Positions 420 through 57,632 of a stretch of 64,000 nt of DNA are shown here, piece after piece. This DNA comes from Eledone cirrhosa (lineage: Eukaryota). The stretch covers positions 228,470,001 through 228,534,000 of the forward strand of contig OZ024741.1 of NCBI GenBank assembly GCA_964016885.1, read 5' to 3'. Below the pieces are notes generated by a model, which saw only the letters and a program-made list of their open reading frames with translations, was not told the origin of the DNA and made no database searches. Within the stretch, counting starts at the first letter, position 1, and each line of letters starts with the position of its first letter. A program made the translations under genes and the position numbers.

Positions 420-2700
420 TTATATTTCTCTTAAGTCAGTATTGTTTCTTTGGGTGTTGTTATTCCATTCATTTTTTCTGTTTAGCTTTGGCCTTCTAAG
501 CTCTATTTCGCTTGCCTCTCTGATTTGCTTATCCGCTGAATCATTTCTATGTTTAGATATTATTTTAATTTCTATGTTGTCTATGTTACCGTCATGTTGT
601 CTGGCGTGTTCGTATTGTACTGAACCGTTTTTTCGTCCTTTTAGTTCCCCCCAGTGTTGGGCTATCCTTTCTCCTACGCTACGAGCTGTGTCGCCTATGT
701 ATGTTTTTGTCATGTTTCTGCAAGTACCCTTTGTATATCTTATGCTATAGACTACGTTTCTAGTTTTACAGTTTATCCGGGGGGTTTACTTTATAACACA
801 TTTCCTATTAGTACAGTTCATTTTCTTAAAAGGGTATGTTTTGCTGATCATAGATTTTATGGTAGTTCCTGGCTTTTCTACCACTTTAATCTTTAAGTGG
901 GTCTTTCTCAGGGCCTTTCTACACTGGTTAGCTAATTTCCCTCCACGGGTAGCGTCCACGAACATGACACTCTGATATCCCTGGTTGTCGTACCATAAGG
1001 TGGCTTTTCCTATCTTATGTTTAGTCCTATCTAAGCTATTCTATGATTTGCCTCTGTATAATGGGCAAATTCCTTTCATGTCCAGTTCTATGAGGGTCTT
1101 ATACTTCTCCGTGGCTCCTTTGTATACTCTGATTCTGTCTCTTTGGTTGTAGCCAGAGAACTGCATGCGGTTAATGAAGTGTTGGATGTGTCTTTCCATT
1201 TCTGTTGGGTCGCACATGCGGGACACGTTCTTCATCACTCGTACCAAGTCTGCGATCAGAATATTAAACTTAGCACTACTGGACAATGCTGAGTTTTTGA
1301 GTATCAGGTATTTGGAGTCCATGGGTTTAGCGTAGTGTAAGTGGAGAATTTGGGCCTTCTCGCCTATAGTGTTAATCCAGAGTTCCGTGTCTAATACAGG
1401 TAGTGTACTGTTAGGGTGTTTGGAAGGGCAGTCAATAGTTACAGTTATACTCTGGTGTATCGAGTTAGCTATCTGCTGGATGCTTTCCATTGTACTACAT
1501 TCTAAATCATACTTGTTAGTACTCTCTTGTGGGGGTGTCCTTATTACTATATTGATATCGTCTACATAACGAGAGTACATGATGAGGTCTATGGAGCTCT
1601 CACCAAGGAGATCTTTGAGTCTCCTTTCCCACCATACCATAAAAAGGTTGGCAACGTCCCCAGCTATGCTGACGCCAGTGGCTGCTCCCTCATTTTGGGT
1701 GTAGATCTTTTCGTTGAATTTGAATATGTGGCCCTTTAGGCTAGTTTTAATACTAGCCCCTATTGCATGCGCGACCATTTTTCTTACCTGATCATTGTTT
1801 TGGGGGTCCGTATTGCTTTGGTCCACCCAATCTACCTTCCTATGGGAGTCGTTTTTGCCATTGAATTTATGGTGTGGGGGGGGGGGGGGGTTACCTCTTA
1901 TGGGTCTACTGGGGCAGAAACGGCTAAGGTCTTGGCTGTCTAGGTAGTCGTCGGTGTCATAGGTAAGTCTAAGTAGGAGGCCCAGTTCATCTGTGTCGAC
2001 GTCCTAGAACGCCACCTCGCTCTCACTGATCATCTCCACACATTTTCCACAGAAAAATCAATGTTAATGGATGGGTATAGTGATACCACGTCCATACCGC
2101 CTATTATGCAGTTAGATAGGTTTTTGTTTTTGTTGCATTCATTGATTCTGCTGAGGAGGTCCTCTGCACTGTCACATACATCTGGGGACATCTTGATTAT
2201 GGGGTGTATAACCATTGAGAGGAAGTAGGAGATCCTGTAGTTGTTAGCGATATTGGTTCCGCATACAGGTCTTGTTGGTGGTCCTGTTGTCGGGTCGTCG
2301 ACTGTCTTGTGGTCTTTGCGGATCCCATACAAGGGAAGTATGTCATTCTTAGACGTCTGGAAGTTGTTGGCAGTGCGTCTGCTTGGCTTTTTTGGGGTTG
2401 CATAGCCTTGATGTAGTTCGGCATGCTGTCTATTGACATCCCACCAGACTTATCTGTGTGTAGACACACTACCTCACCATCCCTTATGCGCTGCTTGTTG
2501 GGCCTCTGGTTTGCTTTGTCTCTTAGTATATCGGTCTACTATTTGTCTAATCTTATTTCTAGCTATGGTGAACTGTGCCTCTGTCTCGTCATCTATTTGT
2601 TGTATTATACAAACCCTTTTATTAAAGGGTAACCTCGTAGGATAAATTTTACTCATCTTATATGTTTTGTCAGCTGGGTTGAAGAATAGTTTCTCTAAGG
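420..2700 (-). pseudogene. Penelope-like retroelement ORF (RT + C-terminal GIY-YIG endonuclease), frameshifted
   Basis: Collinear minus-strand fragments: HTDKSG (2197-2469); RPVCG and GMDVVSLYPSI (2030-2332); YTQNEGAATG..AGDVANLFM, YSRYVDD, LPVLD, HYAKPM (1041-1826); TYIGDTARSVGERIAQH..IREASEI..PKLNRKNEW (420-713). Confidence 0.9.
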
Positions 2701-3004
2701 GGTTGTCATTATATTTGTCGTCATAGTTGTGTGTGTTGTTATTATTGATATTATGGTGGTTGTTGTTCCTACCATTAACATTATTATTATTGTTATGATT
2801 GTTAGATGTATTGTTGTTGTTTTCTCTATTGTTATTGTTGTTGTTACTGTTATTGTTAACATTGTGGTTGTTGTTGTTACTCGTATTATTTCCATTATTA
2901 CTACTGTGGTTGTTGTTGTGTCTGTCGTTAATGTTTCCATTATGATTATTGTGGTTGTTGTTGTGTCTATCGTTAACAATACTACCATTATTATTACTAT
3001 TTTT

Positions 3005-3195
3005 CGGTGAATTGGCAGTATCGGTAGAGGGTTGGACGCCATGCTTTGATGCATAGAGTTACGGCCCTTGCCATTCTGAGTTCAAATCCCGCCTAGGTTA
3101 ACTTTGCCTTTCATCCTTACGGGGTCGATAAAATAAAGTACCAGTAATGCACTGGTTAATTGCTGGCCTTGTGCCAACAGTAGAAACAATTATTA
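3005..3195 (+). mobile_element. tRNA-derived SINE, family A
   Basis: Head TGGCAGTATCGGTAGAG, B box GAGTTCAAATCC, central GCCTTTCATCCTTACGGGGTCGATAAAATAAAGTACCAG (Meta-SINE-like), tail TAGAAACAATTATT; about 18 copies in the window. Confidence 0.85.
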
Positions 3196-10767: not shown

Positions 10768-10810
<43 letters not shown>

Positions 10811-11272
10811 ATCCCGTACACTATTGATTGGTCTATTTTAGACCATTCAAGAGAATACCAAATACCAAAGAGACACAAAGAATTCTTCTTTGTGCACAAC
10901 GGAAAAATTTAGAATTCTCCAAAATTTGAAAGCCAATTCCACTTGCCTTAACTCCAAGAACGAGATCTTCAGATGTTGTCCTCATCTGAAATCACATCTA
11001 CTTTGTAACTGGATTGACATTCCTACAATGACTCAAACACCTTGAACTTCATCTTTACTTTTTACTCCTTATATCCAATACGATTTTTATTACTCTCTGA
11101 ACTCACTTTCTGTACCCATTTATTCTTCTCTCCCTCCTCTCCTCCTATATTTACCTCTTTTATATATAGATATTTGTTTCTGTGTGTATGTATGTATTTG
11201 TATATATGTGTATGAATGTATGTGTATATATGTCTGTACGTATGTATATGTATGTATGTATATATATGTATG

Positions 11273-12033
<761 letters not shown>

Positions 12034-12215
12034 CTTATGTGAGTGTGTACTTATTGTGCAGTAATATGCACACGTTTGTTTATATGTTTGTATGTGTATG
12101 CATTTTTATTTATATTTATGTATATATATGTATATATATGTGTATGTATGTGTGTGTATGTACATGTATATATATATAAATGATTATATATGTATGTGTG
12201 TTTTTGTGTGTGTGT

Positions 12216-12271
12216 GTGTATTTTTATATTATGTGGTGATGTAACCTTACGTATGTGTGTGTGTATATATA

Positions 12272-12335
<64 letters not shown>

Positions 12336-12391
12336 TATATATACACACACACATACGTAAGGTTACATCACCACATAATATAAAAATACAC
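12216..12391. repeat. Near-perfect palindrome centred on (TA)n
   Basis: GTGTATTTTTATATTATGTGGTGATGTAACCTTACGTATGTG... mirrored by ...CACATACGTAAGGTTACATCACCACATAATATAAAAATACAC. Confidence 0.9.
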
Positions 12392-13558
12392 ATATATATA
12401 TATATATATATGTATGTGTGTATGTCTGTGTATTGTATATATATATGTGTAATTATTTTTAATTATATAAAAAGAAATTTAATATAATTTTACTCCAAGA
12501 ACTTGTTGAGTGCTCTAATTCAGTTATAAACATTGATATTCTTATTTATATTTGTCGTATTTCCAACCCTCTGAATACCTCTTCCACTTTCTTTATATAT
12601 ATATATTTTTTGTTTATGGCTTGCATGTATGTGCGTGTGTATGTATGTGTACCTATGTGTATGTATGTATATTTTTATATATAAGTAATTATTTTTATAT
12701 ATATGTGCGTATGTGGTTGTATGTATTTTTTCTCATATTATGTGTGTGTGAATATATTTATATATTTTTTGATATATGTATATACACCTACATTTGTATA
12801 TATGTACCTATACGTGTGGTTGAGAGTATATGCGTGCGTACGAGTGTATATGCACGTGAGTATGTATATGTATGTATATGTATGTATATGTATGTATATG
12901 TTGTATGTGTAGTTATATATGTATGTGTATATGTGTGTATGTGTGTATATATATATATATATGTGTGTGTGTGTATATGTTTTGTATGTTTATACTTATC
13001 TGTGTATATGTTTGTACTGTATATTTATATATATATGTCTGTATATTTCCCTGTATGTGTATGTGTATGTGTATGCATATGTATGTGTGTATATATGTTT
13101 ATGTATGTGTGTGTATATATATATAATTGTGTATGTGTATATGTTTGCGTATATATATGTATATATATGTATTTATATGTAAGTATATATATATATATAT
13201 ATATATGTATATTTTTTTTATGCATTCGCTTACCACGTGTGTTTGTTTATTTATTTTTATTTGTTTTTTTTCAGTTTGTTTTCCTCTTTCGTATTGCTGT
13301 CAACTTGGTAATTTTTTATTTTTTATTTATTTTTTAATTTTGATATTTGACTTTATATTTTACTTTTATTTATTTATTATTTTGATTTCATGTATATGTA
13401 TTTTGTCTGTGTAAGGTGATGTGACTGCTTACTTTAGTATATGCATTATATTCGTTTATTTATCTTTATTTATTTATTTTTATAATTATCTCTATATATA
13501 TATGTATAAAAATATATGTGTGTATATATGTATGTATATATATATATATACCTATATA

Positions 13559-13627
<69 letters not shown>

Positions 13628-13823
13628 ATTTGTGTTTTTATGTGTATGTGTGTGTATATTTATATATATATATGTGTGTGTATATATATGTGTGTGTGTG
13701 TGTGTGTTTATATACTTTTATATTTATTATCTTTTTCTCTTTTTTCTTCTTCCTTCATCCTCACTGTCATATTTCTAATATTTTTGTTTTTCAAATCTAC
13801 ATTCAATAAAAACACCAGGATTT

Positions 13824-13883
13824 TTTCATTCTGACGATTGAAAGCAGATTTATTTGCTTTCAAGAAACCACTGGTAAATGAAA
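13824..13883 (+). ncRNA. Type I hammerhead ribozyme, intact core
   Basis: TTTCATT-CTGACGA-TTGAAAGCAGA(ttta)TTTGCTTTCAA-GAAACC(act)GGTA-AATGAAA; stem I 7 bp, stem II 11 bp, GUA site. Confidence 0.92.
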
Positions 13884-13999
13884 TAATCATCTTATGTTGT
13901 TTATTACATAAATAAGCTCTGTAACCTACATAGAGCACTCTTTTTTCTTGGACCTTTTCGACGGAATTACTTCATTCACACACACACTCACACATATAT

Positions 14000-26119: not shown

Positions 26120-28334
26120 TAAAAGACGGCAAGACGATACTTTGGTTCATGGAAACGTTCCCTGGCAAAGAACGGAAATAAAACGAAGATAATACGTCAT
26201 TATTTGGAGCGATGAAAAGAATTACACGCAAAAACAAATCCACGTTTATGGTATAAATGAAGTCGTAAACTAATATTATCTTAGATGGTTCGTGGAGACG
26301 TTCTCTGGCAATGAACGGAAAAAAAAAAGAAAATACGTCATTATGTGGAGCGATGAGTTCAAATCCCGCCGAGGTTAGCTTTGCCTTTCATCCTTACGGA
26401 AGAGGGGGGGGGATAAAATAAAGTACCAGTAATGTACTGGATAATTGCTGGCCTTGTGCCAAAAGTAGAAACAAGTATGTGGAGCGATGAGAACAATTAC
26501 ACGCAAAGGCAAAACCACGATTATGGTATAACTGAAGTCGTAGACTAAAATTCTATTTAGGAAACCGAATGAGTATCGGCTTCAGATTTAAGAATAATGT
26601 AAATAAATTACAGCGATAATTGAAATCAACAAAAATTAAATATATACATGCACGCATCCATATACGTACATACACATGCATACGCGAAAACACCCGCCAT
26701 GGGTATGCAAATACAAGCACGTACACAAAAACACGCACGCACATACAGAACCCACGCAACGCCTGTACCCGCACATATACGAACATATACACCAAATACA
26801 TATAAAAATATATATAAAATATATATATATATATGTATATGTGTGTATATGTGCATGTATACATATAATTATATAGACGTATATATATATACACACATAA
26901 ATACGTATATAACGCGCGCACACACATACCTACATGTAAATACACATATGTTCGCTAAAGGAACGTCAACCGAAACACAAAGTACTTAACTATACAAATA
27001 AGTAATGGTATAAACATAACATATACTTAGCTACCACATCAAGACGTAAAATATCCGCGTATAGTTCGTACTATCCGTTAGGGTATAATGTGGGGCTGTA
27101 ATACAGGAAAGTTTTGTGCAATTTATGTTTACAACCGAAATTGCCTCAGATTTTTTTGTTTAAGATGTGGTCTTTGGCGTAGAGTATTTCCAGGGCTTTA
27201 GCGGCGCAGGGGTCACATGGTCTTTTATTTCCGTTATACCATCTAGCCTAAGCTATGAACTCCCAGTGTAACTTATATTGGGTGTGGTTGTCTTTTAGAC
27301 TTCAGATATAAGTTGAAAGTGACGTCATATTTCTTCTTAAAGGGTTAAGAAAAGAATGGGTATGCATGTAAAGGCGCTGCTTTAATCTATTGGCGGTTAA
27401 CCCTATGTGGGCCCTACGGGACGTGGGTGTTTCAACCTTACATTTGTAGACAATGTTACTAGAGAGGCATTTCCGGATAGGGGGCAGTCAACCCAATTCC
27501 TACAATTACAGTTAGTACTAGCTACAGGGTTCCACGTGTTCCTTCGACTAGGTAATTTAGCTAAGATTTAAGCTGTGATGTTATGTGCAAGGTTAGAAGT
27601 CGTAGAGTAAGACATTTTAGTGGTATTTCTATTAAAAATGTTAATATATTTATGTGCTGGGGGGAAATGCTTCATAATAAGGGAGAGAAGGATCTTAGCT
27701 AATGGTGTGGCCACCTCCATACTATATGGTGGGTTATACCATATAATGTGTCGGGATCTATTCTCATACTCTGTACATGCTACCTTATCGACAAATCCAC
27801 TCCAAGCAAGATCTTCATTGTAATATGTGGAATGGTCGGTGAAAATATGCTCGTTTGTAAATAGACGGGAAAGCCTCAGTGAAACGTTTCTTACCAGGTT
27901 CTTGGTTATGCTGGCAGGATGGTTAGAATGCTTAATTATGTAATTAAGCGTATCATTTGGCTTTCTATACGGGTAGTGCAAGCCATTCGACAAATTGGGG
28001 TTACGTCGACGTAATTAACGAATGCTGTGAGTTCTTTTCTGAACCTGTCGCAAGCACGTGGGCCGCACTTTGTCATGGTCAAATGACCGTCATCACGGTA
28101 CAAACCACCCCCACGTTGAGGAATTCTTGCTAGATAGAGAAAAGAAGGAAAAGGCCGATAAGATCAGTAACCTCCGCAGAATCGCTGGCGCCCATACTAA
28201 CGTCGAATGGGGGTACTATTAAATTTTTTAATCCAAATAGAGTCGTGGAAATTAATCACCGACTTACGGGCATTGAGGATGACACCAACTTCGAAATCCT
28301 TAACCACTGTGAATGTTTTAGCGAAATTGATAGC
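26120..28334 (-). pseudogene. PLE (GLYRDD-type RT + GIY-YIG) remnant with 3' UTR
   Basis: Minus strand PFDVSMGASDSAEVTDL, GGLYRDDG, PYRKPN..HSNHP, IIWYNPPYS, MSYSTT, CNCRN..CPL..C; SINE inserted at about 26354-26475. Confidence 0.88.
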
Positions 28335-42782: not shown

Positions 42783-42798
42783 TTTAAAAATATTTTAA

Positions 42799-42874
42799 AT
42801 TGCCTTGTCTGACGAACGAATGAGGACATTTCTTGTATTCGCCTTATTCGGGAAACCTCTGGTAATGAGGTAAT
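42799..42874 (+). ncRNA. Type I hammerhead ribozyme, intact core
   Basis: ATTGCCTTGT-CTGACGA-A-CGAATGAGG(16 nt)CCTTATTCG-G-GAAACC(tct)GGTA-ATGAGGTAAT; 10-bp stem I, 9-bp stem II. Confidence 0.92.
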
Positions 42875-43032
42875 TATATTGTATTGTTTACTATACATTA
42901 AATTTAGCTCTGTAACTTACATAGAGCACTCTTCACTCCTATGAAGTATATATATATGTGTGTGTGTGTATATTATATATTATATATACATATGTATGTA
43001 TATATATACATACATACATACACACACACACA

Positions 43033-43484: not shown

Positions 43485-43630
43485 AATAAACGAAGCTAAA
43501 TTTTAATCATTTGACTTTTATTTAACTTTATTTTACACTACTCCGGAGTAACCAAACCAACCTGCGCACTTCGTCGAGTGCTCCAGCCTGCATACTGAGG
43601 TGTTGGTATACAACCAACATAAACTCAAAA

Positions 43631-44995: not shown

Positions 44996-47900
44996 TGAGA
45001 TATGGTACAGATAGAGAGAAAGGGGGAGATATGATACACAGGGAGAGAGAGAGAGAGAGAGAGAGAGTGAGAGAGAGCGCGAGAGCGAGAGAAGAGATAT
45101 GGTATAAAAAGAGACAGAGAGGGAGATGAGATACAAAGAGAGAGAAAGGGGGAGATATGATACAAAGAGAGAAAGAGAGGTGTGATACAAAAGAGTGAGA
45201 GCGGAAAGCCATAATTAATAGAGATGGGCGGGGGGGGGGGGGGGCAGTTGAAATATAAAGAGAGGGAAAAAGAGACAGAGAGAGAGGGAGAAAGAGAAAG
45301 AGAGGAGAAATGACACAAACAGAGATAGATGGGGAAAATAAGATATAAAAAGAGAGAAACAGAGAGAGAAAATAACAGAAAGAAAGAGACGCGTCAGTAA
45401 GAGTGGCGGAAAGAGGTGGGAAGATACGTTGAAGGGGAGGAGAAAAAAGTAGAGGAGAGAGGAGATGAAAAAATTATGGAAGCCAGTTAGGACAAGTAAT
45501 TGTGTATTGTATACAAATCTAAGATGGTCACATCACAAACATTTTTCAAATCGACCCACGTTGAGCAATAAAAAATCGATAGCAATAATATTAAGTGCTG
45601 TATTCGTACACATCAAACTTTATTGACAATGAAGGAACATACTGAACAGGAGTAGTTATTCAAAGGACTTTTTAAGTTTTGCCAGTATATTTTAAATTTT
45701 ACTGTAACGCTTCAATTAATACATTTTGACTTTACAATTTAAATTAAACGATTTAATTAACAACTTAATTTCTGCTGATCATGAGCAAATTATTTTATGA
45801 AAAAATGCGTACTATAAGGGAGATAACAATGAAGACAAAATCCTTATGGGATTTTCCATGCAAATTAAAAGTTGCAATTACTTTTACATTTTTCGAGCTT
45901 TTTTTACCAAATGTGAGGCAGGCATTGCCTATGCCGTAGAGGTAATACAAGAAGATTAATTTTTCTAAAGTGTATGCTGTAAGAGAGAAATCAATCTAAA
46001 AACAATCCTTATGGGACTTTCCATTCAAACCATTGGGGCCTACAACTTTTACATTTTTAAAATAATTTCGTCCACATTTGAGGCAAGCATTATCTATGCT
46101 TCCAGCTGTATTCGTACACATCAAACATTATTGACAATGAAGGAACATACTGAACAGGATGTAGTTATTCAAAGGATTTTTTAAGTTTTGTCAGTGTATT
46201 TTTAATTTTACTGTAACGTTTCAATTCATACATTTTGACTTTACAACTTTTCACCAAATATAAGAAAGTATGCACATATTGGCTGTCGGACTTTGACATC
46301 TCGGTCGAAGAAAACAATGCGTGTAAATGATGCTCCGCCGATAACCGAAAATAGACAATCACAAAATGCGGTGAGTACAGTTATTGCAATATTTTTGTGC
46401 GCCGCTGAGTGTCGGTTAGTGCGGCGAACCAATAATGCTAAAGCAACTGCTGCAGCACGAGCTGCAGAGACTCCAGAGCAACGTGAAACACGCCTTGCTA
46501 TAAGTGCTACCGCTACTGCTGCAGCAAGATCTGCAGAGACTACAAAAATATGAAACACGCTGTGCGTGTAATGCTTGAGCTAATGTTGCAGCACGAGCAA
46601 TTGAGACTGAGCAAGAACATCAAAGTCGCCAATTGAGAAATGCTTCAGCTACTGCTACGGCACGAGCTGTAGAGACCGTAACAAGTCGAGCTATTCGGCT
46701 GGAGGGTAACGCTCAACGTAGAGCTTTATCGAGGGGTATTTCAAAGGCATCACGCTCACGATGGTACCTTAAGGCAGTTAATTATGACCCTAATGTAAAC
46801 TATCAAATCCATCCTGATATTCAAATATATGCCATGTCAAATACTTGCCAACATTGTAAAGCTAAAAAGTGAGGGGGGGGGGGAGGAGAATCAGCTGGAA
46901 TGTGCTGCTCCAATGGTAAGGTTAATTTGCCCACCCTTTTAGGGAACCATCGCAACCTCTTCAGATGCTTCTAACAGGTAAGCATTCACAATCACGTGAT
47001 TTTCTGAAGCATATCCGACAGTACAACATTGCGTTTCAAATGACCTCTTTCGCTGCAAAACGTCTGAAGGAAGATGAATTTATGCCGACTTTCAAAGTAC
47101 AGGGCCAGGTGTATCATCTCATTGGATCATTGCAACCGTTGCCTACTGAAGAGCCACAAATTTTACAGGTTTACTTTATTGTTAACTGTCATCAGCAAGC
47201 AGATCGACGGCAATCGTACACTTCAGACACTAAACTGGAACTCTTGATTGACCTCCAAGACATGCTTCCCTCTAACAATAGCTACATTCAAAGCTTCAAG
47301 TATGCTTTAGAAGAAGCACCTTCGCTAAATTACGATATCGTCATTTACGCTAATGAGAGACCGTCTGGGGAGCATGCGGGCCGGTATAATGCACATACTT
47401 GTAATGAGGTAGCCATCGTTATTAGTGGAGAGCAGCACAACAAGATAGACATTATTATCAAGCGACGAGACAACAGCCTTAACAGAATAAGTGAAACCCA
47501 TCGATCTTACGACGCACTCCAGTATCCGCTATTATTTGTTTATGGTGAGGATGGATACCATTTCGGAATTCATCAAATTAATTCCACAAACCAAGATAAG
47601 CATACCTCGAAAATTGTCATGTGCATGGATTTTTATGCTTTCTGATTCATGATCCGCGGCAACTGCTTCAACCAGCTGCACTGATCACAAGACCTCTTCA
47701 ATCAATTTGTAGTTGACATGTTCGCAAAAATGGACGCCGAGAGATTATGCTTCATTCGACTTAATCAGAGACAACTTCGCTGTGACACTTACATTCACCT
47801 TCGTGGTGGAATGAACAATGATGCAGATCCTGATAGTATTGGACTGTTGTGCATCCTGCCTTCATCTTTCACAGGAAGTCCTCGGTTATTTTTCGAAAAG

Positions 47901-50900
47901 ATTCAAGATGCTTTAACTATTGTGCGCCTTTTCGGTAAACCAGATTTGTTTATTACTTTCACTTCAAACCCAAAATGGGAAGAGATTCAGAAAGAACTCT
48001 TTCCAGGTCAGAAAGTTACAGCCAGGCAGGATCTTATTGCCAGAGTTTTCCATCTTAAGTTAATTAAGCTCATGGAACTTATTAAAACAGGTGAAAACTT
48101 TGGCCCAGTACAATGTGACATGCTCACAATTGAGTGGCAAAAACGAGGCTTGCCACATGCCCACATTCTGATCTGGTTAAAGACAACACTTAGATCAGAT
48201 GAAATTGCTGAGTTTCCGGATCCGGCAATCGATAGGGACCTTTACCAAAAGGTTAAACACACATGGTGCGTGGCCCATGTGGACATGGATTTCACAACAA
48301 CCTATCGTGTGTTAAGGACAAGTCTAGGTGCTCAAAGAAATTTTCCCAACAGTTCCTTAAGGACAGTCAGACTGGTCATGACGGATAACCACTATATCGC
48401 CGGAGAAGATCTGAAGATGGTGGATTCACAGCATGGGTTGGCAAACATGAGGTTGACAACAGATGGGTTGTTCCATATAGTCCACTCCTTATAAAGATTG
48501 TTGATGCACACATAAATGTAGAATACTGTAATTCAATTAAATCTATAAAATATATTTGTAAGTACATTAATACAGGCCCTGATGCTGCTACGTTTGGATT
48601 ACTTCGGGAAAACAGCCGAGATGAAGTGGCCCAGTACCAAACTGGAAGATACATTAACTCTAATGAAGCGTTCTGGCGGATTTTCGGATTTTTTATACAT
48701 CAACGGCATCCTGCTGTTAAAAAACTTCAAGTGCACCTGGAGAACGGTCAGAGAGTATATTTTACGAATGCGTCAGCTGCCCAGTTAGCACAAGAACCAA
48801 AGGATACTACTCTTACCGCTTTCTTTAAACTATGTCAAGAAGATCCATTTGCTAAAACTTTACTATATCCACAAGTCCCATCTTACTATACCTGGGACAA
48901 AAATACATGGACGCGAAGAAAAACAGGACAGTGTGTCCAAGGTTATCCGGGAATCAAGTTCAACGAGTGCTTGGACAGAGTTTATACTGTGCCCCCAAAC
49001 CAACACGAGTGCTTCCATCTTCGCATGTTACTACATGAGGTCAGAGGACCTACCTGCTTTGATGATCTCCGAACGTTTGACAGACAAGTTCTTCCAACAT
49101 ACACAAAGGCATGTTTGAGGCGTGGATTGCTGGAAGATGGTTCACAGTGGGGTGCAACGATGGCGGAAGTTGCTCTTTTACATTCACCTGCCAGCCTAAG
49201 AAATTTATTTGTGGTACTTTTGCACTCGTGCAACTTATCTGATCCTCTGTCCTTGTGGATAAAATATAGGGATGAACTAACAGACGACTACAGACACCAA
49301 GCACAATTACTGCTTCCAGAAATAGAGGTAGGCTTTAGTAATGAATTATACAACAGAGCTCTCATTGATATAGAGGACAAGTTAGCTCTGATTGGAGGAA
49401 AGGTTTTACGTGACTACGGTTTACCAGAAACTCATCGCACAGACTAAACAAACTTCCCACAGATATCATACAGGAGACTTCGTATGACATCCATGATCTC
49501 GGCCTCTACGTCACAGATAATGAGCCAAAACTTCTAGCTGATCAGCGACTGGCTTATACCACCATTACTGAATCGGTATTTCAAAGAAGAGGTGGCATAC
49601 TTTTCCTCGATGCTCCAGGGGGGACAGGAAAAACTTTCGTTACTAAACTGCTTCTTGCAAAGGTTAGACAGAATAAGGACATAGCAATAGCAGTTGCGTC
49701 CTCTGGAATCGCAGCAATTTTGCTCCCTGGTGGAAGGACGGCATATTCAGTTTTTAAATTGCCCCTTGATTTGGCAAAATTGGAAACTCCTACTTGTCAT
49801 ATCACCAAAGACTCCGAAAGGGCTCATCTGCTGCGAAGGAGGTGTCACCTTATTGTTTGAGATGAGTGCACAATGGCGCACAAAGGTGCTCTTGAGGCAC
49901 TAGACAGGTCTTTGCAAGACATACTGGACTGCAGTGATGTTATGGGGGGGTCACCCTTCTGCTATCAGGAAACTTCAGACAGACACTTCCTATAATACTG
50001 AAAGGAACAAGACGAGATGCAGTAAATGCATGTCTTAAGTTTTCACCATTGTGGCGACAAGTGACATAATTAAAAGTAACTACCAACATGCGTGCAAGAT
50101 TGCATGGGGACACTCTGTCATCAACATTTTCTGGAGACATTCTTACAATAAGAGATGGTAACCTACCTCCGGATACAGATGGACACATAGCAATTGATCA
50201 CATCTGCAATGTAGTTGAAACTGTCGATGATCTCAAGGCGAGTGTATTCCCGAACTTGTGTGATAACTATACGAATCTTGATTGGCTATGCGAAAGAGCC
50301 ATTCTTGCACCCAAAAATATCACGGTTAGCTGTATTAATGATCAGCTTCTTCTTGGATGTCCACGGATATATAAATATCTTGATACTGTGTGTGATCCAC
50401 AGGATGCGGTCAATTATCCAGTTCAATTTCTAAATTCTTTAAATCCTCCTGGTTTACTTCCTAATACATTGGTCCTGAAAGAGGAAACGCCAGTTATTTT
50501 GCTGAGAAATATCACTCCTCCAAAACTATGCAATGGTACACGCCTTGTGGTTAAAAAACGTTGCCATGTCCATAAACAACTCGCAAGGTCAAACTCTCTC
50601 TGTCGCGGAATTCACTTGGATGAACCTTGCTTTTCGCACGGACAATTCTACGTTGCCTGCTCACGAGTTCGCAGTAGTGATAATCTCTTTGCGTTTGTTC
50701 CGAAAAGAAAAACAAAGAATATCGTCTATCCTGAAGTGCTTTAGTATTAACAAAAACACTTATCACAGCTCTGCCTTGACTTCACCTTACTCATTACAAA
50801 ACATACCAATGAATATGTCATGCAGGATATTTGGGATTATAAATTCAAAATTTAACCATACACAAAGGATGCTCTCAAAGAATACATTTTCTCTTATTCT

Positions 50901-51217: not shown

Positions 51218-51239
51218 TATATAATACATATATATATAT

Positions 51240-53111
51240 AACTCAAATCCTTCTATAAGACTTATATGTCCCTCCAAATCTGATATTGGAATAATTAGCA
51301 AAAAAATTTTGGATAGAGTCATCCCACAAATAAGAAAACACGTTATTTTACCACTCTGGGAAAACACTTCCCAGGTAATTAACTGGTTTAAAAATATTAG
51401 ATGTAAATCTTCTGCTTCATTTCTACAATTTGATATAGATAATTACTATTCTTCTATATCACCTATACTCCTGAACAAAGCATTGATATTTGCTAAAAAT
51501 AGATCTAACTTAACTTTGGATGACATTAATATTATTACACATGCTAGACTAACACTTATTGAATTTCAGAATGAATACTGGACCAGAAACACATATAGTA
51601 ATCTATTTGATATTACTATGGGTTCAAGCGATTCCGCCCAAATTACTGATCTTGTGGGCCTCTTTCTCCTTTTCAACATAAATGCCTCCTTTCCCCACCT
51701 TAAAGGTGGTTTATATCGTGATGACTGTCTTCTTCTTTCCAACAACCTTAGCCTTTCAGAAATAGAAAAAAACAAAAAGCATATTAGAACTTTCCTTAAA
51801 GACTATTATAGTCTTCATATTACTTTTGAAAAAACAAGTAAAGTAGTAAATTTCCTAGATATAACTTTAGACTTAGCTACGGGTATCTACCAACCTTACC
51901 ATAAACCCAACCAAAACTTACACTACATACACTCACAATCTAATCACCCTAAATCTATCCTTAAAAACCTTGCATATAATATATCACTTAGAATTTCTAA
52001 CCTTTCTTCTAACCAAGATGTATTTGATAAAAATGCGACCTTCTATAACGAAGCTCTAGATAGAAGTGGCCACAAAAATAGATTAGAATATATACCTTCT
52101 ACTAAAAATACTATAAACATACAACCTAATATTACCAACAAACACCAAATGAAAAGTACACACCTAAATGCCACCCACACTATACCCCAAAATACCAACT
52201 CTTCTAATATAAAGTATAGTAACTCTCAAAAAACTACTCATCATACAACTCTAATAAATGTTAATAATAAAACTCCTAATAAACAAGATAAAACACCTAA
52301 ATCTACAAATCTAACTAAAAATGTGCGTGGTGAGATCATTAACATTAATCCTCCTAGTAAACATCACGATACAATCTATAAAAATAATAAACAACATAGA
52401 AACCGTAATAGACGGGTTACTTGGTATAATGCTCCATTTAATTTACAAATTAAGGATAATATTGCTAAAAAAATTTTTTATATCCTAGAGAAAAACTTCC
52501 CGCCAAACCACAAATACCATCAAATCTTAAATAGGTCTACAGTTAAATTCTCATACTCAACAACAAATAACATAAAACAAAATATAAGTGCCTATAATGC
52601 ATATAAATGTAAGAATACCATAAGTATACCACCAATACATCAAACTAACCATAATATCTCCTCAAATACAGAATTAACGAAAGGTTGTAACTGTAGAAAC
52701 AAAGCAAACTGCCCATTAAAAGGAAATTGTCTTGTTAACAACATAGTTTATAAATGTAATGTTAAAACTAATGATTCTATTTGCTCATATATAGGAGCTA
52801 CTTCTAACAATTTTAAGGCAAGGTTTAATACCCACAAACATAGTTTTAAAAATGCCGCACTGGCTAATACAACATCTCTAGCAGAAAAAATCAATAGTTA
52901 TAAAAATAAGAATATAGAATATGATATAACCTGGAGTGTGCTCAAAAGAGCCACCCCTTATCAAAATAATAGAAATGAATGTAGATTATGTTCCCAAGAA
53001 CTATTTGAAATAATGAAATCTAAGGATATCCTATTAAATAAACGACAGGAATTAATTATATCGTGTAATCATAAACTAAGAAAAACATTTAAATATTATA
53101 AACCTAATTAA
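51240..53111 (+). CDS. Penelope-like element ORF, 5'-truncated, uninterrupted RT + linker + Cys-rich GIY-YIG (probably Naiad-like)
   Basis: Open from 51240 (NPSIRLICPSKSDIGIISKKILD); FDIDNYYSSI, MGSSDSAQITDLVG, GLYRDD, FLDITL, SNHP, WYNAPF, CNCRNKANCPLKGNC, VYKC..YIGAT..FKARFNTH, CRLCSQE, LLNKRQE. Confidence 0.93.
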   Translation, partial: NSNPSIRLICPSKSDIGIISKKILDRVIPQIRKHVILPLWENTSQVINWFKNIRCKSSASFLQFDIDNYYSSISPILLNKALIFAKNRSNLTLDDINIITHARLTLIEFQNEYWTRNTYSNLFDITMGSSDSAQITDLVGLFLLFNINASFPHLKGGLYRDDCLLLSNNLSLSEIEKNKKHIRTFLKDYYSLHITFEKTSKVVNFLDITLDLATGIYQPYHKPNQNLHYIHSQSNHPKSILKNLAYNISLRISNLSSNQDVFDKNATFYNEALDRSGHKNRLEYIPSTKNTINIQPNITNKHQMKSTHLNATHTIPQNTNSSNIKYSNSQKTTHHTTLINVNNKTPNKQDKTPKSTNLTKNVRGEIININPPSKHHDTIYKNNKQHRNRNRRVTWYNAPFNLQIKDNIAKKIFYILEKNFPPNHKYHQILNRSTVKFSYSTTNNIKQNISAYNAYKCKNTISIPPIHQTNHNISSNTELTKGCNCRNKANCPLKGNCLVNNIVYKCNVKTNDSICSYIGATSNNFKARFNTHKHSFKNAALANTTSLAEKINSYKNKNIEYDITWSVLKRATPYQNNRNECRLCSQELFEIMKSKDILLNKRQELIISCNHKLRKTFKYYKPN

Positions 53112-55463: not shown

Positions 55464-55660
55464 TGTGAATCTATATATATATGTATGCGTGTATGTGTAT
55501 ATATATATATGTGTGTATACGTGTATATGTCTATGTATTTATATGTGTATATGTATGTGTCTCTATATGTATGCGTGTGTGTATGTGTATGTGTATTTAT
55601 ATGGTGTGTGTATGTATATGTATGTGTATGTATGTATTTGTGTATATGTGTATGTATATG
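54270..55660. repeat. (TA/TG) mixed microsatellite within the PLE 3' region
   Basis: Dinucleotide mosaic between the ORF and the tandem array. Confidence 0.9.
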
Positions 55661-57624
55661 TGACGGTATTTTAACGATAGTTATAGCTCTGATTCATCTG
55701 AATTATTGAGCCCTCTGCCGCTCATTTCGAATTTTGTTTATCGTGAACTCGTGCGCCGATTTTTCGATACTCGATCTTTCTAATATTTTTAGCTCTGGAC
55801 ATAGCTATCCACCAGTTAATTTTATTGCTCATTTTTTGTCGATTCTATTGAGTGATGAATAGCTTTTGTTTTATTTTAACATGTCTATTGAGCACTCTTA
55901 TTCGATATGTGTATTTCCACATTCCCTCGAATAGTTTTCGCGGATGTAGAGGTTATCTCCCTTGTCTAATGCCATGTGCGTTTTTCACTGGTAGTTAGCC
56001 CCTTATCCGCTAGGAAAAAAGCTCGTTGAGAAAGTAAACTCCGTTCCCCTTGCTCTAGTAGGCTTTTATATTTATATGTGAGCTGATAGAGTACAGTCTA
56101 AGGATTTACAGAAACCCAAGAAGCTAGATTTAACACCTTTCTAGTGGGTCCGGGTATGATTTTACATTCATTTAAATTATTGATGTATTGTTTTATTGAT
56201 ATTTTTTATCTGTTTGTCCCGAATCTTCTATTATCGATTTTTTATCGTATGGTTGATTGTAGACTTGTTCTATATGTGACGGTATTTTAACGATAGTTAT
56301 AGCTCTGATTCATCTGAATTATTGAGCCCTCTGCCGCTCATTTCGAATTTTGTTTATCGTGAACTCGTGCGCCGATTTTTCGATACTCGATCTTTCTAAT
56401 ATTTTTAGCTCTGGACATAGCTATCCACCAGTTAATTTTATTGCTCATTTTTTGTCGATTCTATTGAGTGATGAATAGCTTTTGTTTTATTTTAACATGT
56501 CTATTGAGCACTCTTATTCGATATGTGTATTTCCACATTCCCTCGAATAGTTTTCGCGGATGTAGAGGTTATCTCCCTTGTCTAATGCCATGTGCGTTTT
56601 TCACTGGTAGTTAGCCCCTTATCCGCTAGGAAAAAAGCTCGTTGAGAAAGTAAACTCCGTTCCTCTTGCTCTAGTAGGCTTTTATATTTATATGTGAGCT
56701 GATAGAGTACAGTCTAAGGATTTACAGAAACCCAAGAAGCTAGATTTAACACCTTTCTAGTGGGTCCGGGTATGATTTTACATTCATTTAAATTATTGAT
56801 GTATTGTTTTATTGATATTTTTTATCTGTTTGTCCCGAATCTTCTATTATCGATTTTTTATCGTATGGTTGATTGTAGACTTGTTCTATATGTGACGGTA
56901 TTTTAACGATAGTTATAGCTCTGATTCATCTGAATTATTGAGCCCTCTGCCGCTCATTTCGAATTTTGTTTATCGTGAACTCGTGCGCCGATTTTTCGAT
57001 ACTCGATCTTTCTAATATTTTTAGCTCTGGACATAGCTATCCACCAGTTAATTTTATTGCTCATTTTTTGTCGATTCTATTGAGTGATGAATAGCTTTTG
57101 TTTTATTTTAACATGTCTATTGAGCACTCTTATTCGATATGTGTATTTCCACATTCCCTCGAATAGTTTTCGCGGATGTAGAGGTTATCTCCCTTGTCTA
57201 ATGCCATGTGCGTTTTTCACTGGTAGTTAGCCCCTTATCCGCTAGGAAAAAAGCTCGTTGAGAAAGTAAACTCCGTTCCTCTTGCTCTAGTAGGCTTTTA
57301 TATTTATATGTGAGCTGATAGAGTACAGTCTAAGGATTTACAGAAACCCAAGAAGCTAGATTTAACACCTTTCTAGTGGGTCCGGGTATGATTTTACATT
57401 CATTTAAATTATTGATGTATTGTTTTATTGATATTTTTTATCTGTTTGTCCCGAATCTTCTATTATCGATTTTTTATCGTATGGTTGATTGTAGACTTGT
57501 TCTATATGTGACGGTATTTTAACGATAGTTATAGCTCTGATTCATCTGAATTGCTGAGCCCTCTGCCGCTCATTTCGAATTTTGTTTATCGTGAACTCGT
57601 GCGCCGACTTTTCGATACTCGATC

Positions 57625-57632
<8 letters not shown>
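55657..57632 (+). repeat. Tandem array of about 3.2 x 616 bp (PLE pLTRs)
   Basis: GTGACGGTATTTTAACGATAG at 55660, 56276, 56892 and 57508; units nearly identical; ends in (TA)n. Confidence 0.95.

What the first reader, a model, noticed from the sequence alone, without database searches (positions are those of the whole stretch)
13824..13945. Textbook HHR with a fully covarying relative at 42799
13824 and 42799 share CUGACGA and GAAACC-N-CU-GGUA, yet stems I and II differ in sequence while both pair (7/11 bp versus 10/9 bp). Both are followed about 32 nt later by GCTCTGTAAC(C/T)TACATAGAGCACTC. Structure kept while stem sequence turns over is strong internal evidence of selection on ribozyme function.
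Basis: seen in the sequence. Interest (0 to 1): 0.7.

Follow-up and report, generated by a model that had tools for sequence, protein, structure and literature searches.

The report
Hydra-Penelope ends with weakened hammerheads
Both self-cutting-RNA motifs are real, but they are the tail ends of two related families of a known jumping gene with about 15,000 such motifs in this genome; their lineages spread with core flaws that likely slow cutting, and the shared hairpin beside them likely tells the element's copying enzyme where to start.

Summary
Both type I hammerhead folds are real. They belong to two subfamilies of Hydra-clade Penelope-like elements (68% ORF identity); 14,880 motifs match genome-wide, control 2. 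The 13824 copy ends a 5'-truncated element starting in the endonuclease gene; 42799 is a ~150-nt stub. Covariation is real but partial: 7 of 22 stem positions change on both sides, and stem II beats 500 of 500 shuffles over 20 chosen copies. They are not textbook: only 49 motifs have G10.1-C11.1; 42799 has A·G, 26 of 28 nearest relatives of 13824 have C·A, and an ORF-bearing sister lineage carries U4C. Copy 5' ends do not pile up at the cut site (0 of 30; 3 of 100), so templates were likely uncut or religated. The 'anchor' is the first of two GCUC...GAGCACU hairpins; 64 of 67 copy ends lie just before one of them, and published Hydra consensus sequences from three other phyla show it (by eye). 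The scan already reported this hairpin pair and core mismatches on other DNA; my searches found neither discussed in print. Cleavage untested.

The parts
10806..13976 (+). 5'-truncated Hydra-clade Penelope-like element, subfamily A, between (TA)n and (CA)/(TA)n; interrupted by other repeats in its own microsatellites (about 11357-11917 and 12400-12600)
   Evidence: BLASTN to full-length copy L061: 10803-11349 at 78%, 12689-13914 at 70%, 13487-13982 at 80%
10806..11045 (+). C-terminal remnant of the ORF (end of GIY-YIG endonuclease with CxH; frameshifted), stop at 11043-11045
   Evidence: translation compared with L061
12689..13912 (+). microsatellite-rich 3' UTR / pseudo-LTR ending at the short end
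   Evidence: direct repeat flanking the ORF in L061 (79% over 950 nt); match to the window
13819..13888 (+). type I hammerhead, copy A: stem I 13824-13830/13877-13883 (+4 outer pairs), core 13831-13837, stem II 13838-13863 with U10.1-A11.1, stem III 13867-13875, predicted cut after A13876
   Evidence: 26 of 28 parsed nearest relatives have C10.1·A11.1
13892..13911 (+). small linker hairpin just 5' of the short end
   Evidence: 86% of cells paired, 2 of 5 pairs with double changes, weak against shuffles (13 of 500 on score)
13916..13939 (+). hairpin 1 (the 'anchor'), GCUCUG...UAGAGC followed by ACU; start of the one-sided tail
   Evidence: z -3.94; lower stem nearly invariant in 20 copies; copy ends cluster just before it
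13913..13976 (+). tail, from short end to long end; in ORF-bearing copies hairpin 2 begins about 7 nt after this point
42793..42944 (+). stub of subfamily B pseudo-LTR end inside (TA)n; tail incomplete
42798..42875 (+). type I hammerhead, copy B: stem I 11 bp, core 42809-42815, A10.1·G11.1 mismatch (42816/42851), stem II 42817-42850, stem III 42855-42863, predicted cut after A42864
   Evidence: A·G in 49 of 51 parsed B arms
42907..42930 (+). hairpin 1 of copy B

Best explanation
The two motifs are the hammerheads in the pseudo-LTRs of two subfamilies of Hydra-clade Penelope-like retrotransposons, left here as truncated insertions in TA repeats; the ribozyme likely cuts slowly or only with help, so that mostly uncut or religated RNA was copied, and the conserved hairpin after it likely positions the element's reverse transcriptase. 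Shown: element layout (hammerhead, hairpin 1, hairpin 2, ORF, 3' UTR, hammerhead), copy numbers, covariation, core mismatches, and copy 3' ends just before hairpin 1 or 2. Inferred: the protein binds a hairpin, nicks (TA)n and starts copying a few nucleotides 5' of it; starting at hairpin 1 on one arm and hairpin 2 on the other gives the one-sided ~60-nt tail and the inverted arms; copying then runs through an intact hammerhead 35-40 nt away, which full cleavage would have cut off. Cleavage, if any, would need pairing of two stem III loops (dimer) or the element's protein. Odds: element identity 0.97; slow or assisted cleavage 0.6; hairpins as RNA start signals 0.6.
For: Full-length copies with a hammerhead repeat on both sides of an RT plus C-terminal endonuclease ORF: L061 (A; its 5' hammerhead has a damaged core) and L272 (B; hammerheads 3,660 nt apart). 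Hydra-clade motifs RWK, DKT, CxCX5C, CxxC, CxH (defined in PMC8557442 section 11). Published Hydra hammerheads have the same short stem III and often U10.1·U11.1 (File S2). G10.1-C11.1 in 49 of 14,880. U4C in 22 of 51 B arms (biased sample) is a known weakened but viable natural variant (PMC3088659), the kind of change expected if some activity is kept. 23 of 30 B copies that run into hairpin 2 read through the upstream cut site and none starts within 9 nt of it. 64 of 67 3' ends lie 0-11 nt before a hairpin. A prediction that B tails continue into a second GCUC gave 44 matches, all at one spacing, control 0. An anole PLE starts copying at two internal sites, its hammerhead cuts only with protein, and cutting is not needed for insertion in vitro (PMC11167929).
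Against: No cleavage, binding or expression data. The hairpin's lower stem is invariant in sequence within this genome, so it shows no covariation here, and its upper stem is poorly kept in some subfamilies (partly mis-registered; predicts only 6 pairs); cross-phylum support is by eye. It could act as DNA. 3 of 100 arms do have a junction at the cut site, slightly above my rough expectation of about 1. Loss across the cut site (12.0% over 4 nt) was higher than on either side (8.9% over 6 and over 8 nt), though 18 of the 21 cases inspected had other causes. Religation would erase any footprint, so fast cutting is not excluded. TA microhomology blurs end positions by a few bases. In the anole element the start sites lie inside the ORF, not in a 5' UTR.
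Confidence: 0.68

Rival explanations
1. Efficient, textbook monomeric ribozymes under selection for fast cleavage; cut monomers are religated to circles and copied by rolling-circle reverse transcription.
For: Core letters and the 3-bp stem III are the same in all 20 aligned copies apart from N7 and loop 3 (these copies were picked on the core); the MFE is the hammerhead; religation would explain intact junctions in DNA (model in PMC4209133).
Against: 56 of 90 motifs mismatched at 10.1-11.1, a pair whose mispairing was a rejection criterion in PMC3088659; stem III pair probability 0.25-0.43; metazoan PLE hammerheads were weak in vitro; no loop-loop or pseudoknot partner was identified.
Confidence: 0.13
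2. The hammerhead is catalytically dead in these lineages; its stems persist as a protein-binding or spacing structure, or are kept paired by DNA-level palindrome repair.
For: Purine-purine and C·A mismatches fixed in amplified lineages; U4C on top of A·G in an ORF-bearing lineage; no clear cut-site footprint.
Against: Subfamilies whose ORFs agree at only 31 of 73 four-fold sites keep the unpaired core letters (softer against the 23 of 31 identity of the linker: about 0.003 for one pair); the only lineage-fixed core change seen is a known viable one; G·U pairs are common, which fits RNA rather than DNA repair; an internal duplicate hammerhead lacking the hairpin tail has a non-cleavable G17 in 6 of 6 copies while the terminal one is intact (one event).
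Confidence: 0.14
3. Element identity as above, but the GCUC...GAGCACU motif works as DNA (endonuclease recognition site or internal promoter), not as an RNA start signal.
For: Sequence invariance rather than covariation in this genome; the Drosophila Penelope tail was required for endonuclease recognition of DNA (cited in PMC11167929); pseudo-LTRs hold promoters (PMC6765202).
Against: Both fixed ends lie a few nt 5' of a hairpin in two subfamilies; upper stems differ in sequence yet pair in published consensus sequences from sea cucumber, coral and copepod (by eye).
Confidence: 0.2
4. A non-autonomous retrozyme/SINE or a host-domesticated ribozyme pair.
For: Copy B is a short stub without ORF; retrozymes derive from PLEs (preprint 10.64898/2026.07.22.740005, passages).
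Against: Both subfamilies have ORF-bearing copies; copy A is attached to an ORF remnant; 5' ends are ragged or inverted.
Confidence: 0.03

Closest known systems
Hydra clade of C-terminal EN+ Penelope-like elements, incl. Hydra-1_Obim of Octopus bimaculoides (Craig et al. 2021, PMC8557442; seen: passages, section 11, supplement parts 2, 52, 53)
   Same: RWK, DKT, CxCX5C linker, CxxC and CxH, ORF under 3 kb, (TA)n targets, one-sided tail, sense type I hammerhead near the 3' end with an A-N-N/3-nt loop/N-N-U stem III; non-canonical 10.1·11.1 (U·U) is already tabulated; the GCUC...GAGCACU hairpin is visible in its consensus files.
   Different: Other families (stems differ from the Hydra-1_oBim hammerhead by eye); longer stem II (9-12 bp); C·A, A·G and A·A at 10.1·11.1, a G-Y pair two steps out (82 of 90), a U4C lineage; about 1-kb microsatellite pseudo-LTR; tail about 60-80 nt rather than 30-40; the main text never uses 'hairpin' or 'stem-loop'.
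Minimal hammerheads of metazoan PLEs (Cervera and de la Pena 2014, PMC4209133; parts 1-3 of 4 read)
   Same: In pseudo-LTRs, thousands of truncated copies, many families with compensatory changes, long helix II, inverted pairs; predicted weak activity.
   Different: Those keep G10.1-C11.1, a single extra nucleotide after A9 and an absent or palindromic helix III; here a 3-bp stem III with ACU, UCU, UUU loops (only ACU near-palindromic) and almost no G10.1-C11.1.
Poseidon element of Anolis carolinensis (Frangieh et al. 2024, PMC11167929; parts 1-2 of 4 read)
   Same: Two internal start sites that bound the tail; AT-rich target; hammerhead close upstream, dispensable in vitro and protein-assisted.
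   Different: Different clade; its start sites are in an AC-rich stem-loop 111-118 nt inside the ORF, not before twin 5' UTR hairpins.

Membership tests
Type I hammerhead ribozyme | Three stems around C3 U4 G5 A6 N7 G8 A9 / G12 A13 A14 / A15.1-U16.1 / H17 | tested here: met
   both window copies
Type I hammerhead ribozyme | Paired 10.1-11.1, usually G-C | tested here: not met
   copy B A·G; copy A U-A but its lineage C·A; G-C in 49 of 14,880. Published Hydra hammerheads also depart, so this lowers 'textbook', not 'hammerhead-like'.
Type I hammerhead ribozyme | Tertiary contact between stems I and II | not tested
   none evident by eye; no modelling run
Type I hammerhead ribozyme | Site-specific self-cleavage | not testable with these tools
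   genomic footprint inconclusive to negative
Rfam hammerhead families | Score at gathering threshold | tested here: not met
   no hammerhead among 10 matches at E<=10 for 13760-13980; none among the 150 of 225 rows shown for the whole window
Hydra-clade PLE | Single ORF, RT followed by C-terminal GIY-YIG-type endonuclease | tested here: met
   YRDD then YVGMT in L061, L271, L273-L275; read by motif, all copies frameshifted; Pfam gave no hit at E<=0.5
Hydra-clade PLE | RWK and DKT motifs | tested here: met
   L061 and 5 of 5 B copies
Hydra-clade PLE | CxCX5C linker; CxxC and CxH around conserved E and N; no CCHH | tested here: met
   CxCX5C and CxxC in 5 of 5 B copies, CPH in L271 and L061; L061 lacks the first two Cys in a deleted stretch; CCHH absence judged by eye
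Hydra-clade PLE | Pseudo-LTR direct repeats with hammerhead, inverted 5' arms, one-sided tail, (TA)n target | tested here: met
Hydra-clade PLE | RT phylogeny inside the Hydra clade | not tested
   reference sequences not available as tool input; assignment rests on motifs and by-eye likeness to Hydra-1_Obim
Non-LTR retrozyme | Non-coding tandem monomers of 150-400 nt without own ORF (recalled size range) | tested here: not met
   both subfamilies have ORF-bearing copies

The most novel reading that the evidence does not exclude
Hydra-clade Penelope elements use a pair of bulged GCUC...GAGCACU RNA hairpins, conserved across four animal phyla, as start signals for reverse transcription on the two arms of an insertion, which explains the Penelope tail; and because the first start site lies only 35-40 nt past the hammerhead cut site, successful lineages were selected for detuned ribozymes (10.1·11.1 mismatches, U4C), giving a natural allelic series that tests what PLE hammerheads are for.
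Probability: 0.35. Interest if true: 0.65.

Novelty: new variant of a known kind. Interest (0 to 1): 0.36.

Why it matters
The hammerheads themselves are expected: PLE pseudo-LTRs carry them. Two open questions in the papers read are what PLE hammerheads do and how the one-sided tail forms (PMC8557442, PMC11167929). This family offers a defined cis element for the tail and natural core variants (U-A, C·A, A·G, A·G plus U4C) that each left many copies, so both questions become testable with short RNAs and one purified protein. It also shows why descriptor searches that demand a paired 10.1-11.1 undercount animal hammerheads.

Tried and rejected
Rfam: whole-window scan swamped by microsatellite-driven microRNA matches; no hammerhead on the A locus. 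Pfam and PDB sequence searches gave nothing useful for the ORFs. RNA runs: no RNA holder listed; two contig runs laid only showed family heterogeneity. One search used a structure string off by one column and is discarded; the three upper-stem pairs of hairpin 1 were also mis-registered, so only stems II, III and the lower hairpin stem count. RNAalifold on the MAFFT alignment did not recover stems I or II: a 1-bp indel shifts stem I between subfamilies and stem II lengths differ; stem I was therefore scored per subfamily from the core outward. CpG decay as the cause of lost G10.1-C11.1: rejected, since G10.1 is not in a CpG and neighbouring CpGs persist. A cut-site footprint from nested counts: apparent excess dissolved on inspection. 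An ORF beside L003 proved to be another insertion. Lunse et al. 2017 (PMC5785218) and Ambros and Flores 1998 (PMC147498) are not held and were not seen; the first may describe similar variants. Supplements of PMC4209133 and PMC11167929 were not read; those of the 2026 preprint are closed; any may bear on novelty. R-scape was not available.

Full report
1. Observation. Both motifs are at the stated places. Copy A folds as a type I hammerhead (z -3.69; 1 of 200 shuffles as stable) and copy B does too, more weakly (z -1.77; 9 of 200). Cut sites are A13876 and A42864. The anchor follows stem I by 32 and 31 nt and is itself a hairpin (z -3.9 and -3.6). The window lies in a 3.0-Gb, microsatellite-rich animal genome; an octopus-like origin is my inference from composition and ORF likeness, not a tool result.

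2. They are two of thousands. The anchor has 1,747 exact matches (control 0), the hammerhead pattern 14,880 (control 2), and stem III plus a looser anchor 7,138 (control 0). From loci covering the first 100 listed places I parsed 90 distinct motifs, which fall into six groups by stem II (my labels A, B, D-G, one unassigned). The window copies are groups A and B. Copies share 3' ends in (TA)n, have ragged or inverted 5' ends, and often form mirror-image arms.

3. The element. L061 holds a full A copy: a ~950-nt repeat ending after the hammerhead, then anchor, 5' UTR, a frameshifted RT-endonuclease ORF, 3' UTR and the repeat again. The window's A copy is its 3' part, from an endonuclease remnant at 10806-11045 to the tail end at 13976. 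For B, 24 of 30 loci show an open stretch of 120 codons or more of a related RT, and L272 has hammerheads 3,660 nt apart around the ORF. A and B ORFs share 106 of 157 residues at the N terminus and 31 of 73 four-fold sites. RWK, DKT, CxCX5C, CxxC and CxH are present; these define the Hydra clade (PMC8557442 section 11), which includes an O. bimaculoides family. No tree was built.

4. Covariation. Comparing A and B by hand over 22 stem positions (one 1-bp indel set aside): 8 identical, 7 changed on both sides, 4 changed to or from G·U, 3 unpaired in one copy. On 20 copies that I chose to span the groups (alignment A1), stem II has 77.5% of cells paired and 9 of 11 pairs with double changes; the covariation score was reached by 0 of 500 shuffles, and slid controls pair 32-41%. 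Relatedness inflates such scores, and the count of pairs with double changes alone was not exceptional (92 of 500). Stem I pairs in nearly all copies at its first 6 positions in every group. So the fold was kept along master lineages. It says nothing about these two loci.

5. Not textbook. At 10.1-11.1, 32 of 90 are Watson-Crick, 2 G·U and 56 mismatched; none is G-C; a G-Y pair sits two steps out in 82 of 90. Genome-wide, G10.1-C11.1 occurs in 49 and the displaced G-C in 8,774 of 14,880. Copy B's A·G is its lineage's state (49 of 51 parsed arms out of 66 found). Copy A's U-A is a minority state among its nearest relatives (C·A in 26 of 28 parsed from 29 loci). A sister lineage of B has U4C (22 of 51; sample enriched), including both ends of ORF-bearing L272. 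PMC3088659 (passages, section 8).1-11.1 the most conserved pair after 15.1-16.1 and reports U4C as weak in vitro but viable in a viroid. Published Hydra hammerheads already list U·U there and the same short stem III, so departure at this pair is a clade trait; the purine and C·A forms extend it. Stem III is marginal as a monomer (0.25-0.43) and its self-duplex is -10.2 kcal/mol for the ACU loop and -7.1 for UCU or UUU, compatible with dimer folding.

6. Was the template cut? Cleavage would leave 5' ends at the cut site. Nested counts lost 8.9% over the 6 nt before it, 12.0% over the 4 nt across it and 8.9% over the next 8. Of the first 100 listed arms, 21 lack GGUA: 9 point changes, 6 an internal decayed duplicate with G17, 3 a local tandem duplication, 3 true junctions at the site. 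Among 30 B copies that run into hairpin 2, 23 read through the upstream site, 7 start 10-66 nt after it and none within 9 nt. Templates were thus mostly uncut or religated. This fits the anole PLE, whose hammerhead cuts only with protein and is not needed for insertion in vitro.

7. The anchor. It is the first of two GCUC...GAGCACU elements in the 5' UTR. A-type 3' ends: 28 of 51 lie 3-7 nt before hairpin 1, 20 lie 0-8 nt before hairpin 2, 3 elsewhere. B-type: 5 of 16 lie 2-11 nt before hairpin 1 and 11 lie 2-8 nt before hairpin 2 (TA microhomology blurs these). I predicted that B tails continue into GCUC and allowed 2-14 nt; all 44 matches had the same spacing. By eye, the motif is in 4 of the 6 published new Hydra consensus sequences (Ajap-1, Ajap-2, Amil-2, Crog with variant letters), with different but pairing upper stems; I did not see it in Amil-1 or Obim-1. 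Within this genome the lower stem is invariant, so an RNA role is inferred. I noted the cross-phylum hairpin and a second copy before consulting earlier notes; the link of hairpin 2 to the tail end came from those notes and I then tested it.

8. Mechanism. Shown: layout, counts, ends. Inferred: the protein binds a hairpin, nicks (TA)n, and starts copying just 5' of it; two starts give the tail and mirror arms; the copy runs through an intact hammerhead; slow, dimer- or protein-gated cleavage may process tandem transcripts at another stage. Rivals: fast ribozyme with religation (0.13), dead ribozyme (0.14), DNA-level hairpin (0.2), retrozyme or domestication (0.03).

9. Novelty. Hammerheads in Hydra PLEs are known. 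Paper searches (listings only unless named above), a word search of PMC8557442 and of the 2026 retrozyme preprint found no discussion of the twin hairpins or of these mismatches; two key papers were not held. Earlier notes of this scan report both on other DNA. Verdict: new variant of a known kind; interest 0.36.

Noticed in passing
window about 55660-57630: 616-bp tandem array, about 3.2 units, 615 and 616 of 616 identical, with GCTCTG...GAGC(C/A)CT motifs like the twin hairpins but no long ORF and no canonical hammerhead; missed by Tandem Repeats Finder (period above 500). Possibly a young non-autonomous Hydra-type element.
   Followed up: partly
window 21806 (+)/21009 (-), 43435 (+)/43181 (-), 59809 (+), 10343 (-), 41119 (+): Other hammerhead-like motifs; two are mirror-image pairs, several have palindromic AU-rich stem III. 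The 59809 motif has C·C four steps into stem II.
   Followed up: no
window 51225-53111 (+): 628-codon open stretch of another Hydra-type PLE (RT core, CxCX5C, endonuclease), 46-49% identical to L027's ORF.
   Followed up: partly
window 420-3058 (-), 27568-28014 (-), 46926-50744 (+): Fragments of further PLEs and of a Helitron-like Rep/PIF1 helicase (Pfam PF05970).
   Followed up: no
L230, L234, L236, L237, L239, L240: An A sub-lineage carries a second, internal hammerhead upstream of the terminal one, with G17 and no hairpin tail, in 6 of 6 copies.
   Followed up: partly
window 13877-13903 and alignment A1 columns 82-106: RNAalifold predicts a conserved G·U-rich hairpin pairing the 3' arm of stem I with the downstream UUGUUU, which would compete with the hammerhead; a possible further brake.
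   Followed up: no
window 12509-12515 (-), 43577-43583 (-), 9294, 36592: Further GAGCACT motifs; the one at 12515 resembles a stretch inside L230 and may be the tail of another family nested in the element's 3' UTR.
   Followed up: no
L231: Local 40-nt tandem duplication of the stretch starting at the cut site, 3 units.
   Followed up: no
L250: The hairpin 1 to hairpin 2 stretch of B appears to repeat in tandem without hammerhead or ORF.
   Followed up: no
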